A DNA stretch of 64,000 nucleotides, taken from the NCBI GenBank assembly GCA_951406725.2, contig OX597819.1, positions 99,820,001 through 99,884,000 of the forward strand, written 5' to 3'. Numbering within the stretch: the first letter of the stretch is position 1; the number at the start of each line of letters is the position of its first letter. The stretch is from Octopus vulgaris (taxonomy: Eukaryota). Below, piece by piece: positions 4,541 to 63,536 of this stretch. The position numbers and the translations under genes are program-made. The notes beneath the pieces are model-generated. The model saw nothing but the letters and a program-made list of their open reading frames with translations, did not search any database and was not told where the DNA came from.

Positions 4541-4544
<4 letters not shown>

Positions 4545-4728
4545 AGAGTTCACGAAAAAAATAAATGACGAAGAGAGGTGGTGTAGAAAACAAACAGATG
4601 TATTAGAATTGAAAAAGTCTTTTACGTTTCGAGCCTACGCTCTTCTACAGACAGGAACTGAGAAAAAAAAACAAGGAGAGAAACAAGGGGAGAAAAATGC
4701 GTGTAGTTGCTACCGATCTATCATAGCG

Positions 4729-6635: not shown

Positions 6636-6696
<61 letters not shown>

Positions 6697-6823
6697 GATG
6701 CTGCTACTACTACAACCACCACCACCACCACCACCACCACTACTACTTCTACTACTACTACTACTACTACTGATGCTGCTACTACTACAACCACCACCAC
6801 CACCACCACCACCACTACTACTT

Positions 6824-6863
<40 letters not shown>

Positions 6864-6865
6864 CT

Positions 6866-6942
<77 letters not shown>

Positions 6943-6943
<1 letters not shown>

Positions 6944-7849: not shown

Positions 7850-7851
<2 letters not shown>
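6943..7851 (+). mobile_element. 5'-truncated R4/Dong-like non-LTR retrotransposon (CCHC and restriction-like endonuclease), degenerate
   Basis: GKLKRETESLLVAA*HEALRTNWIK...CRLCKSKEESVTHIISEC (CCHC), RPDLVAVDK, KYQDLAIDL and LQKILLLGTARILRRAL, with stops and frameshifts. Flanked by (TAA)n on both sides. Confidence 0.85.
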
Positions 7852-7925
<74 letters not shown>

Positions 7926-7950
7926 TGATGATAATGATAATAATAATAAT

Positions 7951-9561: not shown

Positions 9562-9598
<37 letters not shown>

Positions 9599-9650
9599 GA
9601 TGCTGCTACTACTACAACCACCACCACCACCACCACCACCACTACTACTT

Positions 9651-9686
<36 letters not shown>

Positions 9687-9698
9687 TTACTACTACCT

Positions 9699-9784
<86 letters not shown>

Positions 9785-9785
<1 letters not shown>

Positions 9786-10693: not shown

Positions 10694-10695
<2 letters not shown>
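9785..10695 (+). mobile_element. Duplicate of the R4/Dong-like fragment at 6943-7851
   Basis: Near-identical sequence inside unit 2 of the duplication. Confidence 0.85.
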
Positions 10696-10760
<65 letters not shown>

Positions 10761-10782
10761 TGATAATGATAATAATAATAAT

Positions 10783-11267
10783 GATACCGGATATCATTAT
10801 AAAATATCAGACAAAAAGGATGTGTTTATTAATTGACATGAGTATTCCCTTGCGATCACAATATAGCGGCGAAAGAATTTGACAAGATTAGTAAATATAA
10901 AGACCTGCTAATGGAAATTGAAAAAATGTGGCATCTCAAGGCGACTACAGTACCAGTGATTGTAGGATCTCTATGAATGATAAAAAAGGCACTGAAACCT
11001 ATTTGAAAATGATTCCAGGCTTACCATCCCTACAGGAAGTGCAAAAAATCGTATTAACTGGAACGGCTCATGTACTGAGAAGAGCACTATCGCTGTGAAA
11101 ATAACATCCATCCATGAATTTATATATTTGTTAATTTTTAAATACATATGTTATCTGGGAATTTGCGCGGGTAATCTGGGAATGCATACAATGCCCTTCT
11201 CTGCCCTAGGTGTATGGAAAACACTCGGCGAGAAACGGAAGAAAATTTGAAGAAAGAAGGAAAAAAC

Positions 11268-11478: not shown

Positions 11479-13381
<1,903 letters not shown>

Positions 13382-20170: not shown

Positions 20171-20519
20171 TATTTAGAAGTATATTAACTAGTTTTGATT
20201 TCTTATATAAGAGGGCAATGCGTCTCTATTTTTAGCAGTACTTGTAAATGGGGTTGGTGGTGAAATAGATGTGGTTATAATCTTTATGATGGCGGTAGTC
20301 GTAGTTGTTTAGGCACGAGTCTTCCCAACCAAACCAATCCTTTTATTAAATACTTCCTAGCTATGAAAAGCCTATTTTTCCGATGGTGTAGGATCAGTTT
20401 CTCCTATGAAAGAGAAATAGAGGTATTTTATCTTAATGTTGACGATGATTATGACGACGAGATGACAGCAACGAAGGAGACGACAATGACAATGAAGATG
20501 ATGATGATGATGTCATAAT

Positions 20520-21730
20520 CGTTAGAACGATGGACAAAATGCTTAGCGGCATTTCTTTCGACTCTTTATGTTCCAAGTTCAAATGCCACCGAGGTTAAAT
20601 TTGCCTTTCATTCTGTCTTGGTTAGTGAAATAAGTACCAGTTGAGCATTGGGGGTCAATACAATCGACTATTCCTTGCCCTCAGCATTGGAGGCCTTGAG
20701 CCAAAGTTGAACAGGTCATTATTATTCGTGATAGCACTAATATTAAGCAGCGAGCTGGCCAAATCGTGTGCGCGTCACCAAAAATACCCTTATTTTTTTC
20801 TGCTCTTTATCATTTGAGTTCAAATTCAGCCGAGATCCACTTTACCTATTACCATGTACCAGCCAACTACTAAATTCGATGTAATCGACTTGCCCCTTTC
20901 CTAAGCTTGTTCCAAAATTTAAATCCTTTATTATTACTATCGTCAGGGCGTCGAACTGGTAGAACAGTTAGCACGCCGGGAGAAATGCTTAGCGGTATTT
21001 CGTCCGACGCTACGTACTGAGTTCAAATTCTGCCGAGGTCAACTTTGTAATCGACTTAATCCGTTTGTGTGTCCTTGTTTGTCCCCTCTGTGTTTAGCCC
21101 CTTGTGGGTAGTAAAGAAATAGGTATTTCGTCCGGCGCTATGTTCTGAGTTCAAATTCCGCCGAGGTCGACTTTGCCTTTTATCTTTTCGGGTCGATTAA
21201 ATAACTACCAGTTACGCACTGAGGTCGATGTAATCGACTTAATCCGTTTGTCTGTCCTTGTTTGTCCTCTCTGTATTTAGCCCCTTGTCGGTAGTAAAGA
21301 AATAGGTATTTCGTCCGCCTTTACGTTCTAAGTTCAAATTCTGCTGAGGTTGACTTTGTCTTCAATCTTTTCGGGTCGATAAAATAAAGTACAAGTTTCA
21401 CACTTGGGCCTATGCAGTCGACTAGCCCCTTCTACTAAAATTTCGGTGCCTGTGCCTGCAGTTGGTAGGATTATAATATCATCATCATCATCATCATCAT
21501 CACTTCCAGCTGGTGGTTGAGTAGAATCATCAAAACGTCAGAAAATGTTTGGAGATATAATCCGGTTCTTTGCATTTTGCGTTCAAATCCAATCACGGTC
21601 AACTTAGCTTTCCTCTGTGTAGCAATCGATAAAATAAAGTACTTGTCCAGTTTTGGAGTCAACAATATCAACTAACTAGCTCACCATCGAAATCGCTATC
21701 CTTGTTCCTAAATTCGAAACAGTTATTAAT
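20520..21730 (+). mobile_element. Cluster of at least 6 same-orientation family-A SINE copies
   Basis: Repeated gttcaaat...gccgagg...tttgcctt cores near 20577, 20818, 21021, 21150, 21332 and 21581. Confidence 0.85.
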
Positions 21731-23450: not shown

Positions 23451-23555
23451 GCTACACAACTCGAAGCGACCACACGGTAGCAGACAACATCAGTTGTTGT
23501 CCGTGTGACTGTGTAGGCCGGATTCAGCAATACACACAATAGTGAGGTATGCAGC

Positions 23556-23899
23556 ATGAGAACGGGGGTCGACCATTTCCTAGTTCCATGGTGCATCCTG
23601 GCCACTTTCGGCTACAGCACATCCGTCATGGTAGCGGAAGACACCAGAAATCCTGATTTCCCGCCAGAGAAGCGAACCCTGCTCGACAAATTCGTCAACG
23701 ACTTGATTGTATGTCGAAAATTACCCGGTTTGACACTGTCTTTGGTTGGAGGTGGCCGTAATCTTTTTGCCAGAGGTTATGGCTTGAAGGAACTGACCAA
23801 ATTCGAACCTGTTACTAACGAAACTCTATTCTGTATCGGTTCACTGACCAAAGGATTCACCGCTACGATACTGGCCATGCTTGTCGGCGAAAACGATAG
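23556..23899 (+). CDS. Exon 1 of a putatively secreted serine beta-lactamase / penicillin-binding-like hydrolase (PF00144-type, gigasin-6-like)
   Basis: ATG at 23556 and a moderately hydrophobic N-terminus, then LPGLTLSLV, FARGYG and PVTNETLFCIGSLTKGFTATILAMLV (FxIGSxTK = catalytic SxxK). Donor AG|GTAAGT at 23900, phase 2. Confidence 0.92.
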
Positions 23900-24230
23900 G
23901 TAAGTCACTGAGTGTATATATACACACGCACATTCACAAATATACACAAATATACACACATACAATATATATACAAACATATAAATACATATACACACAC
24001 ATACAGAGGTAGCGGCACATATACACACATGTACACTCAAAACACGTATAGGCATTCATACGCAAACACATAAATACATGCTTTATCAAAAATAATACTT
24101 TGGCATTTTATTTCTCTCTCTTTCTGTTCCTTTTCTCATTAGTTTCTCATCAGTTCTCTCTCTCCCTCTCTCTCTCTCTCACGATATATATATATACATA
24201 TATATATAAATATATGTGTATGTGTGTATG

Positions 24231-25099: not shown

Positions 25100-25149
25100 T
25101 GTATGTATGTATGTATGTATATGTATATATATATCCATATGCATATGTA

Positions 25150-25320
25150 TATATTCTTTTCTACTCTAGGCACAAGGCCCGAAATTTTTGGGGAGGGAGC
25201 CAGTCGATTAGATCGACCCCAGTACACAAATGGTACTTAATTAATCGAATCCGAAAGGATGAAAGGCAAAGTCGACCTCGGCGGAATTTGAACTTATAAC
25301 GTAAAGACAGACGAATGCAT
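25150..25320 (-). mobile_element. Family-A SINE (tail variant 2)
   Basis: gaaaggatgaaaggcaaagtcgacctcggcggaatttgaact core with a ttttctactctaggcacaaggcccgaaatt tail. Confidence 0.8.
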
Positions 25321-27511: not shown

Positions 27512-27715
27512 TGCGGTGAGCTGGCAGAATAGGCAGCACGGTATGCAATATCTTCCTGCCGTTTTCACGTTCTAAATTCATATTTCCCCAAGGTCAATTT
27601 TGCCTTTCATATTTTCGTGGCTCATAAAATAAGTACCAGTTGAGTACTGAGGTCGGTGTAATCAACTAAATCCATCTCTCGAAATTGCTGGATTAGTACC
27701 AAAATGTGAAACTAA
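27512..27715 (+). mobile_element. Family-A SINE
   Basis: gcggtgagctggcagaat head and ttgcctttcat...aataagtaccagttgagtactg core. Confidence 0.75.
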
Positions 27716-27793
27716 TATATGCGTGTATGTGTGTGTGCGTGCGTGTATGTGTGTGTGCGTGTGTACGTGTGTATACCTATATATATGCAGTTA

Positions 27794-29199: not shown

Positions 29200-29430
29200 G
29201 GTGGCGAGCTGGTAGAAACGTTAGCACACCGAGCGAAATACTTAACGGTATTTCGTCTGCCGTTACGTTCTGAGTTCAAATTCCTCCGAGGTCAACTTTG
29301 CCTTTCATCCTTTCGGGAGCGATTAAATAAGTACCAGTTATGCACTGGAGTCGATATAATCGATTTAACCCGTTTGTCTGTCCTTGTTTGTCCCCTCTGT
29401 GTTTAGCCTCTTGTGGGTAGTAAAGAAATA
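29200..29430 (+). mobile_element. Full-length family-A SINE (tail variant 1) with a 15-bp TSD
   Basis: Direct repeat agatatttcacgtat at 29181-29195 and 29430-29444 flanks ggtggcgagctggtagaaacgttagc...gtttagcctcttgtgggtagtaaagaaata. Confidence 0.9.
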
Positions 29431-29869
29431 GATATTTCACGTATCTCCTATCGTCTCACCACGCCATTTCTCCTAACTTACCGGATATCAGAGTGATCGA
29501 ATGGTTAACATGCTTAATCCAGTAGAGTGAGATTTTGAATTCGATGCTACTGAGTGGTGTCTTGAACTAGTGTTCTTTTACCATTCACTCGAGTTAAACC
29601 ACGACTTGTGGGTGAAATGGGATTGACAGAAACAATATGTAGATAGGTCGAGTGGATTGTTCCTGTAATGCGCTGCCTTGTCACACACTATATGCTTTTG
29701 ATTGTCTCTTAGAATAAAATTAATCATGTAAATATCTATGGAATATTCAGCCACCTATACATTACTCATGAATTTACGAGTAATAATTCTACAGGACACT
29801 CATCGAAGAAACCGACTGATGATTCGCCATCAAAACATCATATATATATAGATATATATATATATATAT

Positions 29870-32938: not shown

Positions 32939-33337
32939 GTGGCTGTGTGGTAAGAAGTTTGCTTCCCTACCAAATGGTTGCGGTTTCAGTCCCACTGCGT
33001 GGCACCTTGGGTAAGTGTCTTCTTATAGCCTCAGGCCGACGAAAGCTTTGTGAATGGATTTGGAAACAGGAAAAAAGCCCGTCGTAATCTTTACGTGTGC
33101 GTGTGTCTTTGTGTTTGTACTTGCCCCCCACCACCACCACCATCACCATCGCTTGCTAACTAATGATGGTGTCTTTATGTTCCCTTAACTTAGCAGTCCG
33201 GCAAAAGAGTCCGAGAGAATAAGTACTAAGCTTACAAATATAAAGTCCTGGGGTCGATTTCTTCCATTAAAAAACCCTCTAAGGCGGCGCTCCAGCATGG
33301 ACGCAGTCAAATGAATGGAACAAAAGCGAAAAGAAAA
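32939..33337 (+). mobile_element. Family-B SINE
   Basis: gtggctgtgtggtaag...cagtcccactgcgtggcaccttggg...ggcggcgctccagcatgg. Confidence 0.85.
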
Positions 33338-33612: not shown

Positions 33613-34416
33613 TGCTAGGTCTGATCAAAAAGTATCTGGACTGTTGTCATAGTAACGTATCTAAATCACGCAGAGTAAAGCTATCAGGCAAAGATTCACC
33701 TTAAACTCTGCTGTGCATGCGCACTAAGTTTTAACGTTCTAGCTCACTTCCGCTGTTTAGCATGTGATTGTCGCATTGACCGTGACAGAAAATGTTGTTA
33801 TGGCGATATTTGATCAGAGGCCTATTCAGAGTTACAAAAAGTTTATGGGGAGAAGTGTATGAACCGCACACAAGTGTACGACTGGTTCAGACGTTTCCAA
33901 GATGGCCGACAAAATGTCGATATTGACAACGAAGGTTCTGGGAGACCGACAACCAGCAGAACTGAGAAAATCATTGCAGATATGCATGCAGCTGTGAGGG
34001 AAAACCGTCGAATTACCATCCGCGTATTATCAGCGGATGATCAGATTAGTCACCCTTCAGTTCAGTCCATTATCACTGACGATTTCAGTATAAGACGCAT
34101 ATCTACTGGTTTTAGCTGAGCAAGAAGAAACTCGATAAAAACTTTGCGTAGGCCGCTCAGCAGGTATCACCTAGCTTTTGACAAAATTTAAGGCAGATTC
34201 TCTGTTCAACTTTCTCTGTCATGATCAATGCAACGATCACATGCTACACAACTTCCTTCCAAGTACTGATGTAAACAGCGGAAGTGAGCTTGAACGTTAA
34301 ATCTTAATGCGCATGCACAGAAGAATTTAAAGTCAATCTGTACCAAGCGGCTTCACTCTCCGTACTTTAGACTCGTTACTATAGCAACAACCCGGATACT
34401 TATTGATCAGACCACG
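33613..34416 (+). mobile_element. Mariner derivative built from two inverted 5' ends, with a transposase HTH remnant
   Basis: TIRs ggtctgatcaaaaagtatctgg / ccggatacttattgatcagacc, with inverted similarity extending ~190 bp. ORF 33859-34119 MNRTQVYDWFRRFQDGR...SGRPTTS...ENRRITIR matches the mariner N-terminal HTH. Confidence 0.85.
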
Positions 34417-38284: not shown

Positions 38285-38918
38285 AGTATAGGATAGGGAT
38301 TCAGACAGAGAATTTTGTGGTTATCATAGAAAGTCTCTCTTACGGACTCGGCTAACAGAGAAGCGTAATGCAGAGAGTCTGTGCAGCTGAAATCCAGAAA
38401 ACGCGATTGATGAAATTATTTCATAAGGGGTATTTAAAACATATAAGTCAGGAGGCATGCCAGGTTAATACATATTTATTCAAGCAAGTACAATACGCAG
38501 GATTATGATCATTTCATAACCTTTACCATGTAGTTTAAATTTCAGTGAGAAAGAAGTTATGCGTATTTGTCTACATTAATATTCGGGCACAGTATTATAC
38601 TATACATTTATATATTCACAAGTCAATGCAAGCAAAAAAGAAAACTAGCTCATCACATCAGATCATCATGCTAACACCAACAATTCAACTCCCAAATTTT
38701 ATGACTTTTATGGATTATATACTTCTCATGAATATGCAATCGAATTGTATAATGCCGTGCATGCACATTATTGCAAATATGTACGCATAATTTCTTACAC
38801 ACTGAAATTTATACTACATTAAGAGGATTGCGAAACGACCGTATCTCAACGGCTGTCTCGAGCTTAAGTAAATATATATTCACCTCTTATATCTTCTGGC
38901 TTTTATTGGTTATATATA

Positions 38919-39712
38919 CGAGGTGGTATCAAAAAGTTTTCCGACTAGTTACGTCTAATAAAATATAACTTATTAACCTAAGTTTTAGCATCGTCACTTT
39001 CGAAATAGTCACCTTGCACCGGTACTAGTGTTCCTACCACTTTTGGAATCTGACTCGGAAGTCATTTATCGTAAGTGAGTCGAGGACCTCCTGAAGTTCG
39101 CTGTGGATCTTGGCCACAGTTTTAAAATGGCAACCTTTGATCTGCATTTTCATGTTGGGGAAGAGATGGAAGCTTGCCGGTACTAAACCTGGTGAATAGG
39201 GTGGGTGTTGAATTAATACCATGTCGTTTTTGGCGAGAAACTCATCAGTGAGAAGTTCTCGTTGACATGATGCATTGTCGTCGTGAAGAATCCAATTCTT
39301 CGCGCTGCACAGATCTGTTCCCTTTCGCCGAATTTCTTCCCTCAAACGCTTCAAAACGTCGTCTATTGTCCTGAAACGATCCTCATGCACAAACTGATGA
39401 ATATTCTATTAGACGACGCTCGTAGCAGGCCATCCAGATCACTCATTGTCTTCCAGGGACATTTTTGAAGCGGCTGTACCACTCGACACATTGCATACGG
39501 CCCATTGCCTTGCTACTGTAAGCTTGCCGAGGAATGTTCAATGTCTCCGTAGCAGACTTCGCAAGTTTAACGCAAACTTTCATGTTAAATTTTTGTTCCT
39601 GACAAAATCGCTGACTACAGCATATTGCATAAACACAAAGTTTCCAACTTACGAAGTAAGCACAGCGATGTCACCCGGCACACTGTCTCGTGAAGGTCAC
39701 TGCTAGCTCTCT
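38919..39712 (-). mobile_element. Internally deleted mariner transposon
   Basis: TA then cgaggtggtatcaaaaagtt TIR at 38919. C-terminal WILHDDNA...HPPYSPGLVPASFHLFP (YSPDL motif region) is fused to N-terminal EQKFNMKVCVKLAKSATETL. Confidence 0.88.
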
Positions 39713-42707: not shown

Positions 42708-42792
<85 letters not shown>

Positions 42793-42795
<3 letters not shown>

Positions 42796-42990
42796 CGAAT
42801 TCACGAAAAAAAAAAGACGAAGACAGGTCGTGTAGAAAACAAACGGATGTATTAGTATAACGCTCGGGAATTGAAAAAGTCTTTTACGTTTCGAGCCTAC
42901 GCTCTTCCACAGAAAGGAACATAGAAAGAAACTAGGAGACAAACAAGGAGAGAAAAAACTGTGTGTAGTGGCTACCGACCTATCATAGCG
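42793..42990 (-). mobile_element. Family H1 element, copy 2
   Basis: Minus strand cttt-CTGTGGA-A-GAGC-GTAG-GCTC-GAAA-CGTA-aaag (42916-42881), between (TA)n and (CA)n. Confidence 0.7.
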
Positions 42991-43827
42991 CACACGCACG
43001 CACACACACACACACGCACACATACACATATATATTCATGCGTTCATATATATATATACACATATACATATTCATACGTACATACATACACGCAAACTCA
43101 CACACACACACACACATACAGATGTGTGTGTGTGTGTGTGATGTGCAAAAGCCATGATATGAAGAGGAAGGGAAAATATTATACTACGTTTCCGCTCAGA
43201 AAATAAGAAGAAGTAGGAAGAAAAGCAAAACTCTTTTACGTTCCGAGTAATCACTCTTCTTCTATCCAGGTTTCATTCAAACTATTTATGGTTTGGTTGA
43301 AGCGTAACAAGTTCGTGGTATCACATACAGTGAAAGATATAACTATCTCTGTCGTGAAAAACAGAATGAGATTAATCCATGATTTAATAAAGTGTTTGGA
43401 ATGAAATTCGTAGGACATTAATGAATCCGAAAAGACTACACGAAATATGTAAATGTTATAAAGGGCAGCTATGCGTGTGAATGAACTTAACTCTAAACGG
43501 TTTATATTACATTAGGACGACTGTCATACTAGACACTGATTGAGGCAGAAAACAGAATATTATCTTTACTCACTACTAGTGAAGTACTTCACTTTGAGGT
43601 TAGTTCTGCTACAATTGTTGTCCGTAATAAAACTTACTGCGCCTTAACATTGACTGGAAGAAGAAACCAATTCAATCACTCCCAGAACTTGACTGATTCA
43701 CTATATCATCGATTCGGGAAGTTTGGCAGGTTTTGAACTCAAAATACAAATTGCTGAAACTCAATGACGCCAGCCAATTTTTTCGCCTACCTTAAGATTT
43801 TTCCAGATCATTGTGCTTACACTTACA

Positions 43828-43907: not shown

Positions 43908-44624
43908 CACACACACAAAATAATGATTACAAATTTTTAGCTCAGGGCTATCAGTTTTTGGTGGGGTGGGGGAAGTCAATTACATCGACTCCAGTACAGT
44001 ATTTTGAATGGTAATTATCTTATCGCTTCCGGAAGTATGGAGGGTAATGTAGATCTCAGCAGAATTTCAGCTCGGAACAAAAAGATGGACGAAATGCCGC
44101 TAAGAATTTGGTCTGGCATGTTAACGCTTTTTCTATCTCACACTTCGTTTACAGACACACATCCGCGCAGAAATAATGTTAATTTAATCTTCGCTGAAGA
44201 GTCAGAACAAATTTTGTTTCTGTCTTAAGGGGAAGGCCAGCAATAAGGTGATCGTCAGTGGGATTTGAACTAGAACGTTAAAAGAATAGTGCATAAATAG
44301 TTGTGTAAATGAGAAATTCTCTTCTAAACCGAAGAGCCTCGTTATCGCTGTCCTGCAATGTGGGCAAGGGTCATATACTTAACCTTAAGTTGCCCAATGC
44401 TCTGGAAAAGAATTTCGTATGCTGATAATATGTGGAATGCCATACTACATAAATGTGTGCCTATGTCTGTGTGTATGTGTGAGAGTGAATGTGAGTATGT
44501 GTAAGTGTGTGCCTATGCGCATACATGTATGTATAAATATATATATGTATATATACACACACACATATATGTGTACACACAGACCTGTGTGTATCGGTGC
44601 GTGCATGCATATGATATATGTTTG

Positions 44625-44917
44625 TTTATTACCCACAAGGGGCTAAACATAGAGGGGACAAACATTAATACTTGTTTAGAATTTCTTATTTCTATATTGC
44701 CCACAAGGGGCTAAACGTAGAGGAGACAAACAAGGACAGACACACGGATTAAGTCGATTGTATCGATCCCAGTGCGTAGCTGGTACTTAATTTATCGACC
44801 CCGAAAGGATGAAAGGCAAAGTCGACCTCGGCGGAATTTGAACTCAGAACGTAACGGCAGACGAAATACGGCTACGCATTTCGTCCGGCGTGCTAACGGT
44901 TCTGCCAGCTCGCCGCT
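44625..44917 (-). mobile_element. Full-length family-A SINE with a duplicated tail fragment
   Basis: Ends ttctgccagctcgccgc (reverse complement of the head); cccacaagggg tail at 44632 and 44700. Confidence 0.85.
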
Positions 44918-46448: not shown

Positions 46449-46622
46449 TTTGACATGGGACACACCAGTCCAAGAGATATTAGGTAAAGATTTCCAACTG
46501 TGTGATGAACATCGGAGCAAATATGTTAATATTCGGGACCTGCTTGCACACAAAACAGGAATACCCGGTTACTTCGGTGCCCTTACCACTGGAATTTTTG
46601 GAAAAACCGAGGATATAGTGCG
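46449..46622 (+). CDS. Exon 2 of the beta-lactamase-family gene
   Basis: Acceptor ttttttcttttcttacag|T completes an AGT codon with the phase-2 end of exon 1. Encodes LTWDTPVQEILGKDFQLCDEHRSKYVNIRDLLAHKTGIPG (WDTPV and IRDLLxHxxG family motifs). Donor CG|GTAATA, phase 2. Confidence 0.92.
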
Positions 46623-47611
46623 GTAATATCAATTATCATCTGTTTACTTTTCCTCTAGGCTAAATGAGCCGAGTCGTATTTTGACAATGATAATGAAGGA
46701 TTAAATGCTCTTTTTCAGTATTGCAATGTATATATTTTTCAAAATTATTAATTTATTAATCAACATTAAATGATAATCATCAAAATATGAGCCCCGTTGA
46801 TCTGCATTTTTGCTTATTTACGACGTGGCTCTCACGTGACTATTGACCATCTTTCTTTCTTCGCCTAACTTGTGTTTCTTTCTTTCTCTCCGTTGTAGCT
46901 AGATCAAGGAAGACGTGTTCTTGTCTGTCTCCTGTCCAAGCTTGATTTACGCGTTCGCCACCACAACCCCGTTTACGCTTAGCAGCCCTTCCTGTTTGTT
47001 TTCACTGTTCTGTTTGTGTTACCAATTTTAACCCTCCGCAAAATCCCAAATCATATTTAATTTGCTTTGCGGGAGTAACTATTTTATCGAAGGCGTATCT
47101 TGCTATGAAATGATCGAAATACGAGAGTAGAAAAAAGCCAACAGCTGATAAATAGTCGTTCTTTATATTGTTTGTCTTGTTTTCCATTTGTGTCTTTCGA
47201 TGTTCGAAAAATAGTTCATATTCCATGTACTCTTATCTCGTATTTTTTGTCGTACACGTTTCGTGACGTCCTGTGTCCACATATGCATATACGTTAATGG
47301 TTCAATTGAATCAATCGGTCAATTGATTGATATGAAATAGAGTGAACCACCATTGACATGCTATCTTCTCCCAGAGCCCAAAAATCATCTGCCAAAGGAA
47401 AAGAAGAGAAAAAAGTACGCAAAAAAAAAACGAAAGAGAGAAGAGGGTATTTGATCAGTGCGAAAGGTATACGGAATTAGGTCACCTGTTTCTAGCTATC
47501 AGTCGTAAAATGTATGCGTATTTTATATACCAATGTATAAAACATACCGTATTAGCTGGTTAAAGCAATCATGGATTTACAAATTTAATTGGTGATATGC
47601 CTTAACATAAT

Positions 47612-47866
47612 TTAGATAAAAATTTCCAACTGTGTGATGAACACCGGAGCAAATATGTTATCATTCGAGACCTGCTTGAGCACAAGGCAAAAATACCCGA
47701 TTACTTCGGTGCCCTCACCGTTGGAATTGATGCAAAAACCGAGGATATAGTGCAGTAATGCCAATTATTGTCACTTTGCTTTTGCTCTAGGCTAAATGAG
47801 CTGAGAGGTATTTCTCTGTAATTGAATGCATATATTTTTCAAAATATCGAATGATAATCAAAATAT
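47612..47866 (+). pseudogene. 5'-truncated duplicate of exon 2 plus downstream intron (pseudo-exon)
   Basis: LDKNFQLCDEHRSKYVIIRDLLEHKAKIPDYFGALTVGIDAKTEDIV with donor GTAATG at 47755. Downstream intron homology continues (ctctaggctaaatgagc; tatatttttcaaaat). Confidence 0.85.
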
Positions 47867-48033: not shown

Positions 48034-48249
48034 ATGCAAATAATTAGAAAATAGAGAAAACCACAGATTAACAAGCACATCGATTGGACCAAATTTATAG
48101 GTTATTTTTAATAGAAAGCATGACATAAGAAAATAGGTGTCGTCACCTATTTTCTGATGTCAGGCTTTGTATTAAAAAATAAGCTATAAACGTTGTCCAA
48201 TCGATGTGTTTGTTAATTGTAGTCTTCTCAAATTTCTAATTATTTGCAT
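48034..48249. repeat. ~215-bp imperfect palindrome (foldback)
   Basis: atgcaaataattagaaa...gaaaataggtg-tcgt-cacctattttc...tttctaattatttgcat. Confidence 0.85.
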
Positions 48250-48361: not shown

Positions 48362-48420
48362 CTTTTTAGAGAAACTTAAATCCGGAGAGACACACTCTAA
48401 GAAGTAAAGCAGTCTATACA

Positions 48421-49230
48421 TTTTCCTGGTTAAGGCCGGATTATGGCGTCACCCTGGGTTTCCCGTCCATATAGGGCTTAACTTTATGGCGTATCGTCAT
48501 ACACCAAGACCTGTTGGCCTATGACCTCTTTAAAATACATTGGGGAAAATCTGTATTATCTCCCTTTGCCTATGGCTATAGACTTCCAGCCATGCTGCTA
48601 TCGTTCAGCTGTGAGGGTAAACAATAAGGGGTTATCTCCCTCTTCCATTAGCTATCAACTTCCGGCGGTTACGAAAAGGCCAGCAGAAACTCCTAAAGTG
48701 AAAACATGACTCGAAAATATCCGTCCTGTAGTTAAGTATAGCCCCTGGATCGTGTGAGTCCCTTAAGATTCTTGTGCGTTCGGCTATGTAGCGTTTCGTC
48801 CCGTTGGTGTAGAGGCCTGGGTTTTCGAAGATTTTCCATGAGATCGAGTGTAGAACTCAGTCATCTTTTAGTTGCCAAACGTGGCTGGCTAGCGATGTTT
48901 CTGGAACTCTGAAAGAGGATCGATGGCTGGAAAAACATTTCTTCAATGATTTCTGGTACAACCAATATTTATCCTTGGACGCGCAATGTCGGTGCTTAAT
49001 GGAAGAGGGAGATAATCTCCTATTGTCTACTCTCGCAGCTGAACGATGGGAATACGGCCGGAAGTCGATAGCCATTGGCTAATGGAGATGATCCAGATTT
49101 CTTTCCCTACATATTTTAAAGAGGTCATAGGCTAGCATGTCTTGGAGTCTGATGATACGCCATAAAGTTAAACCCTTTATGGACGGGAAATCCAGGTTAA
49201 CCGCATAAATCTGCTTTCACCAGGAGAAAA
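48421..49230 (-). mobile_element. 5'-truncated Penelope-like element: GIY-YIG C-terminus between inverted ~235-bp terminal repeats
   Basis: Minus strand KKCFSSHRSSFR..TSLASHVWQLKD..SWKI..YTNGTKR..ILNYRTDIFESCFH. Arms 48421-48652 and 48994-49230 are inverted copies, each with a hammerhead-like motif. (TA)n lies on both sides. Confidence 0.8.
49143..49205 (+). ncRNA. Type-I hammerhead-ribozyme-like motif in a PLE terminal repeat
   Basis: tggagt-CTGATGA-tacg-ccataaag-ttaaacc-ctttatgg-acgg-GAAA-tccaggtta-accgca. The sister copy (48444-48506, minus) shows stem I tggtgt/acgcca and palindromic stem III acccagggt. Confidence 0.6.
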
Positions 49231-49234
49231 TATA

Positions 49235-49286: not shown

Positions 49287-49377
49287 TAGATTAAAAATCA
49301 TCGAATTCCCTTCATGGTATACTATAAAGTTTTACATTTGATCAATCTTTCCTTCAGGTGATTCCAAATGCATATTA

Positions 49378-49560
49378 ATTTCAAATTTTGGTCCAAAGCA
49401 GGCAATTTCGGTGAAAGTGTTAAATCGAATACATTGAATCTAGTGCTCAAACGGTACTTATTACCCTGAAAGAATGAAAAGGAAAGTCGACCTCGGCTGA
49501 ATATGAACTCAGAACGTAACGATTGACGAAATGCCGCTAAACATTTGGCCCGGCCTACTG
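49378..49560 (-). mobile_element. Family-A SINE, degenerate
   Basis: gaaagtcgacctcggctgaatatgaactcagaacgtaac core. Confidence 0.7.
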
Positions 49561-50102
49561 AGGTTTATGCCTTCATTTCCAGGTACGTGTTGTCACTCTG
49601 GTAGCTTGCTCCCTTATTTATAACAACCAAGAACCAATGCGGTACAATTCAAGCTATTGAATTGTCAATATTACTCGTAGCTTCTGAACACAGGACGATT
49701 CACAAATCCGCTCCCTATACATATATTTATATACGTGGTGTTTGTATATATATATACAATGTATGTGTTTGTGTGTGTGTGTAGTGATAGATTTAGGTAT
49801 GTATGTATCTACAAATACGTATGCACTTGTATGTAATGTTTCAATTTCAAAGCACGCTTTCAGATTGAATTACTTGCCTGTCGAGAACATCGCGTAATAT
49901 CTATCAATCATTTCATTCGTTCATCCATCCATCCATCCATCCATCCATCCATCCTTCCACTCGTCCAACCATACATGCGTCCACACACACACACACATGC
50001 ATACACACATACTTACACACAGAACACACATACGCGCAAACACACACACACGCACACACAAATATATATATATATATATACACATACATATAAACATATA
50101 TA

Positions 50103-50295
50103 GAGATGAAATTTATAGCAAAACAAAAGACGAAGACAGGTGTATGAACAACAACCAGGTTTGACGCTCGTGAAAATGAAAAATGAAAACGTCTTTACGT
50201 TTCCAGTCTACGCTCTTCAACAGAAAGGAATAACAGAAAGAAAACAGAGAGCGAATGAATAAAAACACTGTAGATTTAGCGGTCAAGCATGGCGA
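50103..50295 (-). mobile_element. Family H1 element, copy 3
   Basis: Minus strand cttt-CTGTTGA-A-GAGC-GTAG-ACTG-GAAA-CGTA-aag (stem II mutated); 5' end at cgccatg. Confidence 0.65.
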
Positions 50296-50305
50296 CTCTA
50301 TCTAA

Positions 50306-50630
50306 AAGGCACTCCATCGTGTACGACAACGGGTATTTCAGTTGATCCAATAAGCAAAAAAACCTCCTCGTGAAATTAATGTGCAAGCGGTTGAGGACTT
50401 CATAGACTCGAGTACCCTTAATGTTGTTCGCAGGGAGACTAAGCGTGACACAGAACGTCACATGTCTGACCCTTTGAAAGACTGGTGCTACACACTTTGT
50501 CCCTGCTGGTTGGACTGAGGTAACGTGAAATAAAGAAACTTGCTCAAGGACACAATGCAACAGCGTAAATCGAACTCTCGACCTTACGATCGTGGGCCGA
50601 ATACCCTAACCACCAAATCACGCACCTTCA
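50306..50630 (-). mobile_element. tRNA-derived SINE, family C (CORE-like)
   Basis: Minus strand tgaaggtgcgtgatttggtggttagggtattcgg...gagttcgatt...ttgtgtccttgagcaag. Related fragments lie at ~30420-30530 and ~61500-61580. Confidence 0.75.
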
Positions 50631-50745: not shown

Positions 50746-50924
50746 CATCATCAGACGTAACTTCAAAAGTTAGGAGAAACATTTGGTTGCAGTTCTTGGC
50801 AGTATATTATGTGCATAAAAAATGTTAAGGTGTTATGATCTAGTAGGATTGTTATGATAGAAAGAAAAAGAACGGTGGAGAAATAGTTGTGAGTGCTTAC
50901 AACATATAGTCGTGCAGTAAATCT

Positions 50925-51369
<445 letters not shown>

Positions 51370-52897: not shown

Positions 52898-53355
52898 AGG
52901 ACGGCGAGCCGACAGAATCGTTTACACGCTAAACAAAATGATTTGTGGCGTTTCGCCCGTCTTTACGTTGTGAGTTTGAATTGCGCCAAGGTCGACATAG
53001 CCTTTCATTCTTTCGGAATCGATAAAATAAGCACTAGTTAAACACTGTCGTAGATTTAATCGACTTGCCTCTTCCCCGAAATTGCTGACCGTGTGATAAA
53101 ATTAGAAAGAAATATTCAAATATTCTACAACAATTCTGACGAAAAGCCTTAGCACGCCGGGCTAAATGCTTAGCGGTGGTTCGTTGGCCGCTACGTTCTG
53201 AGTTCAAATTCCGCCGAGGCCGACTTTGCCTTTCATTCTTTTGGGGTCGATAAATTAAGTACCAGTTTCGCACTGGGATCGATGTAATCGACTTAATCCC
53301 TTTGTCTGTCCTTGTTTGCCCCCTCTATGTTTAACCCTTTGTGGGCAGTAAAGGA

Positions 53356-53360
<5 letters not shown>
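52898..53360 (+). mobile_element. Two tandem family-A SINEs (tail variants 2 and 1)
   Basis: ggacggcgagccgacagaatcg head at 52899; second copy from ttagcacgccggg (53149) to ccttt-gtgggcagtaaagg. Confidence 0.8.
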
Positions 53361-53387
<27 letters not shown>

Positions 53388-56997: not shown

Positions 56998-58164
56998 AAG
57001 TAATATTCGTAGCCCTTTTAACATGGCGGTCCGTTCGAGCGGACTCTACTGCGATTTTTTAACCTCAAGAGAACATCTCTAGCTGGTTAACGATGCACAG
57101 CTGCATCTGATAAAACTGCGAGCAGGGGAGCGAAACCCTACATTCTCCTAGTGAAGGGACCAGTAGATAAGTCCTGGTTTCGGGCTATTTCTGCCACTCC
57201 TAGGTACTGGACACCTCGTCTGCCAAATATATATTCATTATTATGATAATATTCATCGGAGATAGAGAGGACACTACAGGACATCACAAACAAAATGTGT
57301 TAACGGGTTCATAAATGACTTCTAAAAATATGATGACGTGTATACATTTAATTAAAAAACATTTTAAACCTTCGCCGTGAAGTCCACCGGCTACACCGTA
57401 TTGCATTATATTTTTAGCTTGGGAAGGGGCTGCATGAATACAGCTTCCTCCTCATCCTTTTCTTCTGCGGTGTAGCCGCTGAACAAACCATAAAACTTTA
57501 GCCACCCATCTTTTGTTAACATCACTGATGTCATCTGAGTACCTGTTTTTTTAATTCCGTGAATAAGTCCACCTCCATTCTACCAATTCTAGTGTGACGT
57601 GACATGTCTTTTCTAGAGCTTTATAGTGAGCTCGGATTACCTTATTATTGTAATTAAAATAAATAATTCTGCCAGAGATGATAACAGCTCGCTTCTGCAC
57701 GCAATATATATACTTCAAGAGAACGCACAGTCACTGATTTTGCAACAAGCAGGCAATAGAGTCCACTGGAACGGAAACCATGTTAAAGTGGCTACGAGTA
57801 TTACTCGTCAGTACAACTACTGCGTTGATTTCTTGGGGAGATTTTAGGACTAGCATTTTTGCTTTCACATATATATATATATATATATAACATAAAGGTG
57901 TCAGATCTTGTTTACACGTGGTTGTAGATATTTAAGAAAGAAAAATATGTAAAAACGCACAGGAAGTTTGTATAATAAAATTTAGGCTAATATTAAGATC
58001 ATAATGAAACAAAGAGTTGTGTTACAACATTATATAATAAACTAGAAGTACCAATTTCGCGTCTTACACTTATCAATCTTCCAAGCTCTCAGATTTCAGT
58101 ACGGAGAGAATTTTTGTTAAAGCATGGGGACGCCATTTTTGTTGTTGGCAATAAATTATTCCCA

Positions 58165-58383
58165 TCAGTTGACTGCAGCCATGCTGGAGCACCGCCTTTA
58201 GTCGAGCAAATCCACTCCGGGACTTATTCTTTGTAAGCCTAGTACTTATTCTATCGGTCGCTTTTATCGAACTGCTAGATTACGGGGACGTAAACACACC
58301 AGCATCGGTTGTCAAGGGATTTTGGGGGACAAACACAGACACAAACATATACACACAAATACATACATACGTACATACATACA

Positions 58384-59009: not shown

Positions 59010-59105
59010 TATATATACACATATAAAATAAAAGCAGCTCTACTATAATAAATATTATTAACCACATATACTTAGAGTATATACTTCGTGTATTTTCCGC
59101 TGACT

Positions 59106-59297
59106 GCAAGAACGTTGTAGAGTATATACACTTTCAAGGTACCGGGTATTAAAACAACGCCGAGGCATGACAGGCGAAATAACTCACCCTCAATCGCATC
59201 CCTTCTAAATGGGATTGAGGGTGAGTTACCTCGCATGTGTATGACTTCTTTCATCAACTGGCGCTTTGAAATTGTATATACTCTACCATGTTATTGC
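59106..59297. repeat. ~190-bp foldback with a 20-bp central stem
   Basis: taactcaccctcaatcgcat (59180) / atgggattgagggtgagtta (ending 59228); outer arms gtagagtatatacactttcaagg / ctttgaaattgtatatactctac. Confidence 0.8.
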
Positions 59298-60189
59298 TGC
59301 CAACGTAATATGTTCTCTTTGATGTTAAGTGTCGTTCGTTGTGGTTTTGTTAGGAAAGTCCTCTTTTTCGGTTTATTAAAACCGAAAGTGCTTGAATCTA
59401 AAACTTCAGTTTGCTACGGCTGGAATTGTAAGTATGTTAATTTTACAGGTAATGCTCTTGTCGTTGAAATGAATTTCAAGAGTAGTTTTGACTTTCGAAT
59501 TCCCATTTTCATTCTTATTCGCTCAGCTTTCGCGCAATTTTAACTTCATTTATGTTCAATTACATACAGAAAGTGATATTGTCTTACTTTGCATGATTTC
59601 CCATTCGTACAGTTACAAACCAACAGCATGGTTTGCTAATTTACGTCGTTTTATTATCCTCTTCTTGCATTCATCCAGCCTAAATATCATCATAAAATTG
59701 CTGCGAAATTACTTGCCTTTCATGTAGAGACATCATCAATATTTGCAGCATATGGTTAAGGTTATTCATGAAAAGGTGATGGCAGATGAGTCTGAAATTC
59801 AATTTCCTTACGTCATACTCCTAACTGGTTTTCTATTAGCTAACACAAAGGCAACGATCATAGAAGAAAATGAAAACCACAGGTACTATCACGTTAAAAT
59901 ATTCCTGGCTTAGATAGTCATATGACACAGGAGCTTAGTCATAATGTTTCCTGTTACTGAATGAGAACTATCTACAAAGTCTTCATTTTTTATATATTTC
60001 ATCGTTTCAGTTAATCATGGTATTTGCTAGGGCGCATACTTTAAGACACAAGGAAAGAAAACCGTTCAATTGGTCTGGATTGCACATGTCCAAAGTAATG
60101 TCAGATCCACATTTCGCTTATTGACAGATTCGGAGTGTCATATACAACTTAATTCCATGAACATGTGTGCTATAACTTACAACGACATT

Positions 60190-60560: not shown

Positions 60561-62048
60561 AACTATTGAGGATACGAATTGAAATAATCCCATTAATAAA
60601 GATCCGTTGTTTTGTACGTCGCCTACAGTGGAAAAACTGACGGTCAATGAATAAGAATACAAAGAGAAAACAGATGGCCTGATGAAGAGGGGAAAAATTA
60701 AGTGCAGGCATAACTGATCACATTTAATGTGAGATTGTTAACAATATACAAACGGGGATTGAAGTTTTCATTATAAAATAAATTGCAGCAGGAAATCGGT
60801 AAAGACCAAGAAATAGTAATTATAGCGCTTAGAGATCACAGACAGTAAATCTAGAAATAGCTTCAGCTGAAGATAGCTGCCATTACTGTACGGTCAAAGT
60901 TAAATTCAACCAAGATATAATTACTTGACTGGATCAGAATGTTAATTGATCATAATGTTAATAACTACTATATAGAAATATGGAATCCAAGTCCAAATCC
61001 ATTTTCAAAATAAACAACATATTGCAGAATATAACGATGATTTCAGATCGAACAGATCGAAATGTTGGATAAGTAAAAATATCCTGAACGTTGATAATAG
61101 ATGGGTGGTGTTAGAGGATCAGTTTCCTTGAGCGGAGGCATTCGATAACAATCTCTCAATCATTTTAGTTGTATTATGTTAAGCTAAATTATGTAAGGAT
61201 TTATTGTAAACTTTGGCTTTACATACTTGACGAATATGAACAATCATTGATCACAATACTTCGATTATTGTAACCGACCATAACATTTATTCAGAAGTGA
61301 TGTATCAAAATTTCGCTAATTGCAGTCTTTGTCTCCCGTGCAGCTCTCCGACCTCCTGATCCAGTGGAATATTCAAAATGTTATATAACAAGCAGGGAGA
61401 GAGAGCGGGAAAGAGAGAAAGACAGAAAGAAAGAAAGGAAGTGAGAGACAGATAGACAGACAGATACACAGAGAGGGACCCACAAAGAGAGGGTTGTACT
61501 AGGCTTATACTCATTTTCAGCTGAATGTACTGAAGCAATATGAAATGCTGCGCTTTGCTCAAGGACACAACACGCCGCCCGATTACACTGAAACTCTATT
61601 GCAATATTCTAATAAAAACATTTTTGTACAAGAACCAGATATCTATTGGAATTAGTGTATGTTGATGTTAGACGGCTTGTCAAGGCTATCAGGTTTCATT
61701 GCATGAAACATAACATCAGAACATATCACAATAAGATTGTGAAAGCATTAAAGTAATCAGTGTCTAGGACATGACTGTCCACTCAGACAATCAAATTAAA
61801 GAGAATATCTCTTGTATCATTGTGAATGACAGCTTGGAAACACGTTTCCTATAACAAAAATTATCAATCCCCGTGGATTTATTAAGTTTCTTAACAAAAT
61901 ATAAAAGTTACGAACCACATGACATGTAATACAGAGCGATACTCTACGATTCATCAATACCATTCATACAATAGAATATGACGTCCATATTGTGTCCATC
62001 ATTCCTTTTGCAGATTCTAATACATGTATGTATTATTTTATTCTTTCA

Positions 62049-62305
62049 TTCTTTTACTTGTTTCAGTCATTTGACTGCAGCCATGCTGGAGCACTGCCTT
62101 TAGTCGAGCAAATCGACTCCAGGACTTATTCTTTGCAAGCCTAGTACTTATTCCGTCGGATGCTTTTGTCGAAGTGCTAGGTTACGTGGATGTAAACATA
62201 CCAGCATCGGTTGTCAAGCGACGTTGGGGGATAAACACAGACACAAACATATACACACACACACATACATACATGCATACATACATACACACATGCATAT
62301 GTATG

Positions 62306-62337
<32 letters not shown>

Positions 62338-62494
62338 CACGACGGGCTTCTTTCGGTTTCCGTCTACCAAATCCACTCACAAGGCTTTGGTCGGCCCGAG
62401 GCTGTAGTAGAAGACTCTCACCCAAGGTGCCCCGCAGTGAGATGAGAACCTGAAACCATGTGGTTGGTAAGCAAGCTACTTACTACACAGCCGC
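62049..62494 (-). mobile_element. Family-B SINE, near full length
   Basis: ttttacttgtttcagtcatttgactgc...gcaagctacttactacacagcc. Confidence 0.88.
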
Positions 62495-63149: not shown

Positions 63150-63152
<3 letters not shown>

Positions 63153-63536
63153 GAAATTTAAAAAAAAAGACGAAGACAGGCATATGAACAACAAGCAAGT
63201 GTATTAGTTTCACGCACGAGGAAAATGAAAACGACCTTTAGGTTTCGAGCCTACGCTCTTCAGCAGGCAGGAATAAGATGAAATGAAGAGAGAGAGAGAA
63301 TTTAAAAAATGTGTAGAGTTCAGCGGTCCAACATGGCGTATTAGCCATGTTGTACCGCTGAACTCTGCACGTTTTTTTTACATTCTCTCACTGTTTATTT
63401 ACTCTTATTCCTTTCTGTTGAAGTGCGTAGGCTCGAAACGTAAAAGACATTTTCATTTTTCCCTAGCGTCAAACTAACATACTTGCTTGTTATTCATATA
63501 CCTGTCTCCGTCTTTTGTTTTTCTATAAATTTCAAC
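63150..63536. mobile_element. Head-to-head pair of family H1 elements forming a ~390-bp palindrome
   Basis: Centre gttcagcggtccaacatggc-gtatta-gccatgttgtaccgctgaac; hammerhead-like motifs at 63236-63270 (-) and 63411-63446 (+). Confidence 0.85.

What the first reader, a model, noticed from the sequence alone, without database searches (positions are those of the whole stretch)
42793..42990. Short mobile-element family (H1) with defined ends carrying an A6U-variant minimal hammerhead fold
Seen: five ~190-nt copies (4541-4730, 42793-42990, 50103-50295 and both arms of 63150-63536) have the consensus cuuu-CUG(U)NGA-A-GAGC-GUAG-GCUC-GAAA-CGUA-aaag. That gives stem I CUUU/AAAG, a 4-bp stem II, a palindromic ACGU stem III and a GUA site. 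Position 7 varies freely (A, G, U), as in real hammerheads, but the normally invariant A6 is U in four copies and C in one. The copies start at an equivalent 5' point (GCCATG or GCTATG), encode nothing and sit in (TA)n. Known: Penelope-like elements carry minimal type-I hammerheads whose palindromic stem III is thought to work as a dimer. Inference: this is a non-autonomous PLE- or retrozyme-like family with a lineage-fixed core variant.
Basis: partly seen in the sequence, partly recalled or inferred. Interest (0 to 1): 0.8.

Follow-up and report, generated by a model that had tools for sequence, protein, structure and literature searches.

The report
Jumping-gene end with locked hammerhead
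This is one copy of a highly repeated ~195-base element, likely the end piece of a Penelope-type jumping gene, whose hammerhead (self-cutting RNA) motif has U in place of the normally fixed core A in most copies, a change predicted to slow cutting and fold the motif shut; cutting itself is untested.

Summary
Observation largely confirmed. Five ~190-nt copies share a 5' start and a minimal type-I hammerhead layout on the minus strand of 42793-42990; only this copy keeps every stem. Position 6 is U in 4 of 5 copies and C in 1. The motif is the best-conserved part (26/36 invariant columns against 70/171 outside). In contigs of four runs from four organisms, listed variation avoids all 11 core positions, including U6, but hits positions 7 and 17, as hammerhead rules allow. 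The five copies show no covariation. The anatomy fits the terminal repeat of a Penelope-like element (PLE): a 5'-to-5' inverted pair, TA-rich 3' flanks and an end about 90 nt past the cut site. No linked ORF could be shown. The retrozyme reading is not supported (no tandem units in the window). Folding predicts that U6 pairs the core onto the dimer palindrome and locks the monomer. Best reading: PLE end stubs copied from uncut RNA, with a damped hammerhead kept under selection. The scan noted this U6 type before on other pieces of this genome. New variant of a known kind; I found no natural A6U in print.

The parts
42794..42990 (-). The element copy of the finding (subfamily A); the only copy with all motif stems intact
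   Evidence: nhmmer E 2.9e-50; only strict descriptor hit
42881..42916 (-). Minimal type-I hammerhead layout: stem I (4 bp), core 3-9, extra A, stem II (4 bp, tetraloop), GAAA, ACGU palindrome, A17
   Evidence: sequence
42909..42909 (-). Core position 6 = U (canonical A)
   Evidence: equivalent place 63418 has no row among the 40 variant rows shown
42884..42885 (-). Predicted cleavage site, after A17 of GUA; 92 nt from the element's 3' end
   Evidence: hammerhead numbering (inference); distance
42972..42986 (-). Four-codon frame plus stop at the element's 5' start, kept in 5 of 5 copies with three different stops; possibly the last codons of a PLE ORF or a uORF
42917..42957 (-). Pyrimidine tract between the short frame and the motif; T runs of 5-9 argue against Pol III read-through
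42714..42792 (.). (TA)n run abutting the 3' end, the likely insertion target
4543..4728 (-). Copy, subfamily A; U6, A7; 15-nt deletion 3' of the motif; (TA)n on both sides
50105..50294 (-). Copy, subfamily B; U6, U7; two broken stem II pairs
63150..63338 (-). Left arm of the inverted pair, subfamily B; C6, palindrome broken
63344..63536 (+). Right arm of the inverted pair, subfamily B; U6, U7; joined 5'-to-5' to the left arm with 6 nt between the two start hexamers; reference for the read laying
43220..43270 (-). Weak, decayed relative of the motif: one stem II pair changed on both sides, another loop, A at position 6 if read without gaps, other core positions changed
   Evidence: nhmmer E 0.012; sequence; single copy, weak

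Best explanation
These are five scattered copies of a ~195-nt repeat, likely solo end pieces (pseudo-LTR stubs) of a Penelope-like retrotransposon, whose hammerhead-shaped motif has U at core position 6 in most copies and is predicted to cut slowly or only with help. Proposed working, step by step. (1) Inferred: RNA starts at an internal promoter near the shared 5' end, as in Drosophila Penelope. (2) Inferred from the anole element PAc: the PLE protein nicks TA-rich DNA and starts reverse transcription inside the RNA about 90 nt past the hammerhead cut site. Priming at the 5'-most such site and running off the RNA's 5' end would give a fixed-length stub; two such products joined 5'-to-5' would give the palindrome. 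(3) Shown: 5 of 5 copies span the predicted cut site, so their template was uncut there (or rejoined). (4) Shown: the motif is conserved beyond its flanks and its listed variation follows hammerhead rules. Inferred: the fold is still under selection with U6 in place. (5) Predicted: U6 removes the A6 contacts and also pairs U4-G5-U6 onto positions 16.2-15.2-15.1, closing the monomer into a rod and hiding the dimer palindrome. The motif would then act as a damped or conditional ribozyme that spares the template.
For: Conservation: 26/36 invariant columns in the motif against 70/171 outside (Fisher p 0.0008); between subfamilies the motif is 83-94% identical, the 5' part 49-55%, the 3' part 53-68%; 0 of 23 subfamily-diagnostic columns fall in the motif (p 0.012). 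Abundance and U6: 7,318, 9,584, 6,537 and 5,674 contigs laid from four runs (four organisms, four studies), with depth peaking on the motif. All 40 rows shown (of 121) reach at least 8.3% in some run; none is at any of the 11 core positions, against 36 of 123 other places (p 0.036). Positions 7 (U to C 13-17%, U to G 8-21%) and 17 (A to U 1-40%; no G row shown) are 2 of the 3 variable non-CpG motif positions of 29 (p 0.007, post hoc). PLE anatomy: 5'-to-5' inverted pair and (TA)n targets as in PMC8557442; cut-to-end distance 89-94 nt in 4 of 5 copies (82 in the one with a deletion) against 85-92 nt computed from PAc coordinates in PMC11167929; extra base after A9, G10.1-C11.1 and the palindrome as listed in PMC4209133. 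Damping: A6C lowers Mg2+ cleavage strongly (PMC7151607, PMC3088659); single changes in the CUGA turn gave low activity (PMC9901934); in PAc, catalytic mutants of the hammerhead did not affect insertion in vitro (PMC11167929). Lock: p(6:15.1) 0.59-0.83 in the four U6 copies, 0.00 with A at 6 (36-nt domain).
Against: No RT or GIY-YIG ORF linked to any copy: the 109-aa frame upstream of copy 50103 has no Pfam hit, no genome was held, and six family motifs were absent from the PLE consensus supplement of PMC8557442. No covariation: 0 of 8 pairs, score equal to shuffles. The U6 share rests on my inference that ranks rows by share; 81 rows were hidden, the laying favours contigs like the U6 reference, and depth is not a copy count; the repeat call on 50 nt gave no variant table. 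The four organisms share ancestry, so they are not independent. Flanks include T tracts that mutate fast, which inflates the motif-versus-flank contrast. In full-length folds stem II has probability 0.06 or less and stem I 0.00 in all five copies, and the rod was scored on the isolated domain only. The active dimer (-10.9 kcal/mol) is less stable than two monomers (-14.6) or the best duplex (-21.0). The two arms are only 81% identical and do not clearly group together (3 against 1 and 2 informative columns), so one insertion event is not shown.
Confidence: 0.55

Rival explanations
1. PLE end pieces as above, but the motif is catalytically dead. It is kept as a protein-binding hairpin or promoter element, and the hammerhead-like pattern of variation is inherited.
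For: Position-6 changes are strongly deleterious in the assays read (PMC9901934 passages, PMC7151607). PAc inserts without a working hammerhead in vitro (PMC11167929). The rod is the preferred fold of the isolated domain in the four U6 copies, and the listed changes at 15.2 and 16.2 (4-9% each) keep the rod's pairs while singly breaking the palindrome.
Against: Variation concentrates at positions 7 and 17, and 17 changes to U with no G row shown. That is the cleavage rule, not a hairpin rule: U7 and A17 both pair in the rod yet are the positions that vary. CpG decay alone explains the 15.2/16.2 changes.
Confidence: 0.2
2. A self-standing non-autonomous element or non-LTR retrozyme: tandem or dimeric RNA cleaves efficiently despite U6, is circularised and is copied by a PLE enzyme.
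For: Fixed length and shared 5' start in 5 of 5 copies; no coding capacity; animal retrozymes are proposed PLE passengers (10.64898/2026.07.22.740005, PMC7229834); copying of a rejoined circle would also span the cut site.
Against: 0 of 5 copies are head-to-tail or terminally redundant. Retrozymes in PMC7229834 carry canonical type-I motifs in tandem arrays, while minimal motifs are assigned there to PLEs. The 4-codon frame with three different stops suggests an ORF end.
Confidence: 0.15
3. A fold-back DNA element (MITE-like, TA target) or a tRNA-type SINE; 63150-63536 would be the whole element and the hammerhead likeness incidental.
For: A 387-bp palindrome with TA-rich flanks; mariner fragments in the window; the stem II-GAAA segment resembles a Pol III B box (recalled consensus).
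Against: Three solo copies end at the palindrome's centre. Conservation peaks inside, at the motif, not at the termini. No tRNA found. T runs of 5-9 lie before the motif in all five copies. The descriptor match is far beyond chance.
Confidence: 0.05
4. Position 6 is misnumbered: a register shifted by 3 nt gives an A6 core (U3-N4-G5-A6-A7-G8-A9), like natural U3 variants.
For: The shifted register reads a canonical core in the C-bearing copy and recalls a halophile variant quoted in PMC7151607.
Against: It needs a 2-bp stem II, a 3-nt and a 2-nt insertion, and puts the most variable base (U, C, G, A) at the conserved position 4. The first register needs one substitution.
Confidence: 0.03

Closest known systems
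Minimal hammerheads (min-HHR) in pLTRs of metazoan PLEs (Cervera and de la Pena 2014, PMC4209133; parts 1-2 of 4 read, supplements not seen)
   Same: Type-I order, 4-bp stem I, extra base between 9 and 10.1, G10.1-C11.1, palindromic 15.2-16.2 with no stem III loop, mostly scattered single motifs
   Different: U at position 6 (the core variant described in the parts read is U3-A8); stem II of 4 bp; no covariation shown here; no link to an ORF shown
PAc, Poseidon element of Anolis carolinensis (Frangieh et al. 2024, PMC11167929; parts 1-2 of 4 read)
   Same: Element end about 85-92 nt past the cut site (89-94 nt here); AT-rich target; copies made from uncut RNA
   Different: PAc's ORF starts at stem II (no ATG there in this family); its hammerhead cleaves with protein present; its position 6 was not stated in the text read
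Hydra-clade PLEs, including Hydra-1_Obim (Craig et al. 2021, PMC8557442; passages and supplement part 2 of 59)
   Same: (TA)n target, hammerhead near the 3' end, often a 4-bp stem II with tetraloop, inverted 5'-attached copy
   Different: All 34 tabulated motifs (26 Hydra-clade rows) have A6, though they were found with an A6 descriptor; longer stem III; this family's motifs are absent from the file
Natural A6C hammerhead of phage Bcep176 (PMC3088659 passages; PMC7151607 parts 1-2 of 4)
   Same: Natural pyrimidine at position 6
   Different: One phage sequence, C not U; shown to cleave slowly in Mg2+ and well in Mn2+; here a high-copy animal repeat, untested
Animal non-LTR retrozymes (PMC7229834 passages; 10.64898/2026.07.22.740005 parts 1 and 3 of 5)
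   Same: Short, non-coding, hammerhead-bearing, likely moved by PLE enzymes
   Different: No tandem units in the window; minimal rather than canonical motif; no circle evidence

Membership tests
Hammerhead ribozyme (PLE min-HHR) | Core C3-U4-G5-A6-N7-G8-A9 | tested here: not met
   Position 6 is U in 4 of 5, C in 1 of 5; the other core positions 3-9 are canonical in 5 of 5. So not filed as a canonical member.
Hammerhead ribozyme (PLE min-HHR) | G12-A13-A14, A15.1-U16.1, H17 | tested here: met
   5 of 5 copies; position 17 A or U in the rows shown
Hammerhead ribozyme (PLE min-HHR) | Stems I and II, G10.1-C11.1, extra base after A9, palindromic 15.2-16.2 | tested here: met
   Complete in 42793-42990; 34 of 40 cells paired over five copies; the broken 10.2 pair of the reference copy reads the pairing base in 97-99% of laid depth
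Hammerhead ribozyme (PLE min-HHR) | Compensatory changes within the family | tested here: inconclusive
   0 of 8 pairs in five copies; one double change in a weak sixth relative; too few sequences
Hammerhead ribozyme (PLE min-HHR) | Site-specific self-cleavage (as dimer or protein-assisted) | not testable with these tools
   No assay; no RNA run listed
EN+ Penelope-like element | Linked ORF with PLE RT and GIY-YIG domain | tested here: inconclusive
   None beside any of the five copies; no genome to search; unchecked earlier notes report intact elements
EN+ Penelope-like element | Inverted copy joined at the 5' end | tested here: met
   63150-63536, 3' ends outward; arms 81% identical
EN+ Penelope-like element | Partial-tandem pLTRs flanking an ORF; optional 30-40-bp tail | not testable with these tools
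   Only solo or inverted stubs in the window; read laying does not return contig sequence
EN+ Penelope-like element | (TA)n or AT-rich insertion target | tested here: met
   3' end at a long TA run in 3 of 5, TA-rich in 2 of 5; 6% of the window lies within 10 nt of such a run
Non-LTR retrozyme | Two or more head-to-tail units, each with a hammerhead | tested here: not met
   0 of 5 copies; window only
Non-LTR retrozyme | Unit-length circular RNA | not testable with these tools
   No RNA data
tRNA-derived SINE | tRNA head with A and B boxes, no internal Pol III terminator | tested here: not met
   ARAGORN 0 genes; T runs of 5-9 at +30 to +67 in all five
MITE / fold-back DNA element | Best-conserved sequence at the outer termini; both arms needed | tested here: not met
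   Conservation peaks at the internal motif; 3 solo arms end at the centre

The most novel reading that the evidence does not exclude
U6 is a selected switch, not damage: it locks the hammerhead monomer into a rod that hides the dimer palindrome, so the short RNA stays whole while it is copied, and cutting is released only on a trigger (PLE protein binding, a tandem partner or Mn2+). This would be a natural, very high-copy conditional hammerhead with a core letter I did not find described in nature, and it would explain how Penelope elements keep a ribozyme inside the RNA they must copy.
Probability: 0.2. Interest if true: 0.75.

Novelty: new variant of a known kind. Interest (0 to 1): 0.48.

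Why it matters
What hammerheads do in endonuclease-bearing PLEs is stated to be unclear (PMC8557442), and in the one reconstituted element cleavage was dispensable for insertion (PMC11167929). A family that multiplied to high copy while holding a normally deleterious core letter, yet keeping the rest of the core, is a natural test of whether PLEs need cleavage, need it weak, or need only the fold. It also shows that CUGA-based descriptors miss abundant families: Rfam gave no hammerhead match on this copy. The pairing of PLE ends with minimal hammerheads is itself known, so the interest depends on the assay.

Tried and rejected
Whole-genome copy collection: no genome held. Rfam: no hammerhead family on the copy (1 chance hit, E 4.7) and none among the 150 of 287 rows shown for the window. 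RNA: no RNA holder listed; no evidence either way. A second laying on 50 nt around the motif gave no variant table, probably because the stretch was too short. Pattern scans: metagenomes 0 and 2 loci of one sequence; viral contigs 0 and 0; prokaryote genomes 3 loci. All five loci match only the pattern, with unrelated flanks, and were rejected as chance. Sequence look-ups in earlier findings returned nothing, nor did the look-up near this window. Partner search in supplements: motifs absent from PMC8557442 and from the short PMC13282606 file, which holds no library. The 109-aa frame upstream of copy 50103 has no Pfam match and lies in another repeat. A split-core or permuted wiring, prompted by earlier notes, was considered by eye only: none of the five copies has a second CUGA strand that completes a core, and the plain type-I order accounts for all strands. 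A downstream segment complementary to the GAAA strand folds at only -5.9 kcal/mol in this copy and is deleted or changed in the others; left as a hint. The short frame's survival (simulated p 0.0003-0.05) assumes five independent lineages, which is false (two subfamilies), so it is a hint only. Lunse et al. 2016 (PMC5785218) was not held; only its title was seen. No protein-homology search was run, since the only candidate coding remnant is five codons.

Full report
Observation. BLAST and a profile search find five copies of one ~190-nt repeat: 4543-4728(-), 42794-42990(-), 50105-50294(-), 63150-63338(-) and 63344-63536(+). A sixth, weak hit covers only the motif at about 43220-43260 (E 0.012). 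The copies form two subfamilies, A (42793, 4541) and B (the other three), split by 23 diagnostic columns. On the minus strand of the finding the motif reads stem I (4 bp), C3-U4-G5-U6-G7-G8-A9, an extra A, a 4-bp stem II with a tetraloop, G12-A13-A14, the ACGU palindrome and A17. Position 6 is U in 4 of 5 and C in 1 of 5. A stem-checked descriptor with free position 6 gives this copy as the only strict hit, plus the right arm with one mismatch; 60 shuffles gave no strict hit, and no A6 motif passed. Only this copy keeps all stem pairs. All five start within about 2 nt of the same hexamer. The 3' end abuts a long TA run in 3 of 5 and a TA-rich stretch in 2 of 5; the 5' end abuts (TA)n in 1 of 5.

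Is the motif under selection, and is U6 the family state? In the five copies 26 of 36 motif columns are invariant against 70 of 171 outside (p 0.0008). Between subfamilies the motif is 83-94% identical, the flanks 49-68%, and none of the 23 diagnostic columns lies in it (p 0.012). The flanks contain fast-changing T tracts, so the contrast is inflated. No genome was held, so I laid contigs of 4 of the 24 listed runs (organisms A, B, C, D; four studies) on the right arm: 7,318, 9,584, 6,537 and 5,674 contigs were laid, with depth highest on the motif. Depth is not a copy number. The tool showed 40 of 121 variant rows, all between 63374 and 63502. All 40 reach at least 8.3% in some run, so I infer that hidden rows are below about 8%. 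No row is at any of the 11 core positions, U6 included, against 36 of 123 other places (p 0.036). Inside the motif the rows are: position 7 (C 13-17%, G 8-21%), the first loop base, 15.2 and 16.2 (4-9% each, a CpG), position 17 (U 1-40%, no G row), the outer stem I base, and this copy's own stem II lesion, where 97-99% read the pairing base. Positions 7 and 17, the two that hammerhead rules leave free, are 2 of the 3 variable non-CpG positions of 29 (p 0.007, post hoc). Limits: laying favours contigs like the U6 reference, more distant A6 relatives would be missed, the organisms share ancestry, and a second laying on 50 nt returned no variant table. Against the structural claim, the five copies show no compensatory change (0 of 8 pairs). 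The only double change is in the decayed sixth relative, which may also have A6.

What the element is. The anatomy fits the end of a Penelope-like element. The extra base after A9, G10.1-C11.1 and the palindrome are the marks listed for PLE minimal hammerheads (PMC4209133). The pair at 63150-63536 is joined 5'-to-5' with 3' ends outward, the arrangement described for PLE inverted copies, and (TA)n is the listed target of Naiad and Hydra PLEs (PMC8557442). The distance from the predicted cut to the 3' end is 92, 92, 89 and 94 nt, and 82 in the copy with a 15-nt deletion. In PAc the cut lies at +26 and reverse transcription starts at +111 to +118 (PMC11167929), which I compute as 85-92 nt. All five copies open with Met-(Ile/Leu)-(Asp/Gly/Tyr)-Arg-stop, using three stop codons and two Arg codons; this may be the last codons of an ORF. 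Membership is not proven: no RT or GIY-YIG frame flanks a copy, and family motifs are absent from the PLE supplement searched. The host is likely an octopus, by earlier notes and my recall of the window's repeat content; I did not test this. In Octopus vulgaris PLEs cover 6.83% of the genome in 190 families (PMC13282606 supplement).

How it likely works. In Drosophila Penelope the promoter and start site lie inside the pLTR (PMC2377424 passages). If the PLE enzyme primes at the internal site nearest the RNA's 5' end, it would run off after about 195 nt and leave a stub with two fixed ends. This explains the shared start without a separate non-autonomous master; it is inference, and a preferred truncation point or a true non-autonomous RNA would look the same here. 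Every copy spans the cut site, so the template was uncut or rejoined. In PAc, uncut RNA is the main substrate, catalytic mutants insert normally in vitro, and the ribozyme cuts only with protein present. Position 6 matters for catalysis: natural A6C gives under 0.1 per min (PMC3088659), A6C cuts far better in Mn2+ than Mg2+ (PMC7151607), and single changes in the CUGA turn gave low activity in a saturation screen (PMC9901934). I saw no figure for A6U itself. Folding adds a second effect: in the 36-nt domain U4-G5-U6 pairs with 16.2-15.2-15.1 (p 0.59-0.83 in the four U6 copies; 0.00 with A at 6), and for this copy the bare hammerhead conformer falls from 0.099 to 0.019 of the ensemble. That rod would hide the dimer palindrome. 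Caveats: nearest-neighbour energies ignore the core's tertiary contacts, full-length folds favour other pairings in all five copies, and the active dimer is not favoured. The scattered copies themselves are likely inert: 4 of 5 carry lesions, and the inverted pair gives one sense motif per transcript.

Rivals. A dead motif kept as a binding hairpin (0.2) fits the rod but not the freedom of positions 7 and 17. A retrozyme or self-standing non-autonomous element (0.15) fits the fixed ends, but no tandem unit is seen. A MITE or SINE (0.05) fails on internal conservation, solo arms, no tRNA and internal T runs. A shifted register (0.03) needs two insertions and a variable position 4.

Novelty. Minimal hammerheads in PLE ends are known. 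I did not find a natural A6U hammerhead in these searches: hammerhead + A6U, 1 listing, a twister paper not opened; hammerhead + A6C + variants; U6 core strings; octopus + Penelope + hammerhead; Terminon + hammerhead + catalytic core. Unseen material could hold it: Lunse et al. 2016 (not held; title only), the supplementary alignments of PMC4209133, and bioRxiv supplements. Papers seen: PMC4209133 parts 1-2 of 4; 10.64898/2026.07.22.740005 parts 1 and 3 of 5; PMC11167929 parts 1-2 of 4; PMC7151607 parts 1-2 of 4; PMC13282606 part 1 of 3 and a supplement search; PMC8557442 passages, supplement searches and part 2 of 59; passages only of PMC6765202, PMC3088659, PMC7229834, PMC9901934, PMC10085705, PMC6155905 and PMC2377424. 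The scan noted this U6 type before on other pieces of the genome. Two notes report young intact coding elements with it and one calls it damped; I could not check the former, and I reuse the latter's wording. Verdict: a real, abundant PLE-type end element with a family-level core variant; new variant of a known kind; interest 0.48, rising to about 0.75 if U6 proves a conditional switch.

Noticed in passing
window 1590-1625 (-): Decayed minimal hammerhead of another family with a canonical A6 core, 5-bp stem II and AAUU palindrome, but G at position 17 and no stem I.
   Followed up: partly
window 43150-43270 (-): Decayed relative of the motif with one compensatory stem II pair and possibly A6, followed about 40 nt downstream by a second CUGA...GAAACGUA-like fragment without a stem II.
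   Followed up: partly
window 50296-50620 (-): Repeat-like stretch with a tRNA-like A/B-box head (by eye, recalled consensus; ARAGORN finds nothing) directly upstream of copy 50103; its 109-aa frame has no Pfam hit.
   Followed up: partly
window 5686-8398 and 8458-11230, third copy 12398-13279: Near-identical tandem duplication of about 2.8 kb (99%) with an 84% third partial copy; frames look like LINE fragments by eye. Recent duplication or assembly artefact.
   Followed up: no
window 33618-34413 and 39034-39405: Mariner-type transposase fragments (Mos1 HTH E 4e-07; weak DDE_3), the first within inverted repeats.
   Followed up: partly
window 23517-23903 (+): Likely exon of a beta-lactamase-fold protein (Pfam PF00144, E 1.2e-12) in an animal genome.
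   Followed up: no
window 6250-6439, 20514-21475, 25148-25315, 27556-27718, 29203-29438, 44614-44916, 49372-49571, 52936-53361; and 5365-5758, 32941-33323, 50924-51369, 58156-58338, 62038-62492: Two further multi-copy short repeat families, SINE-like; the second is split by microsatellite runs.
   Followed up: no
window 1763-3810, 38528-38819, 48034-48249, 48415-49234, 59092-59311; direct repeat 46480-46681 / 47612-47813: Several fold-back or long inverted-repeat elements and one 202-bp direct repeat 1.1 kb apart; no hammerhead layout found in the stretches scanned.
   Followed up: partly
window 42917-42927 and 42897-42904 (-): The 8 nt just upstream of stem I can pair with the stem II 5' strand and loop in the full-length fold of this copy, another way of closing the motif; may be chance, given a U-rich tract beside a purine-rich motif.
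   Followed up: partly
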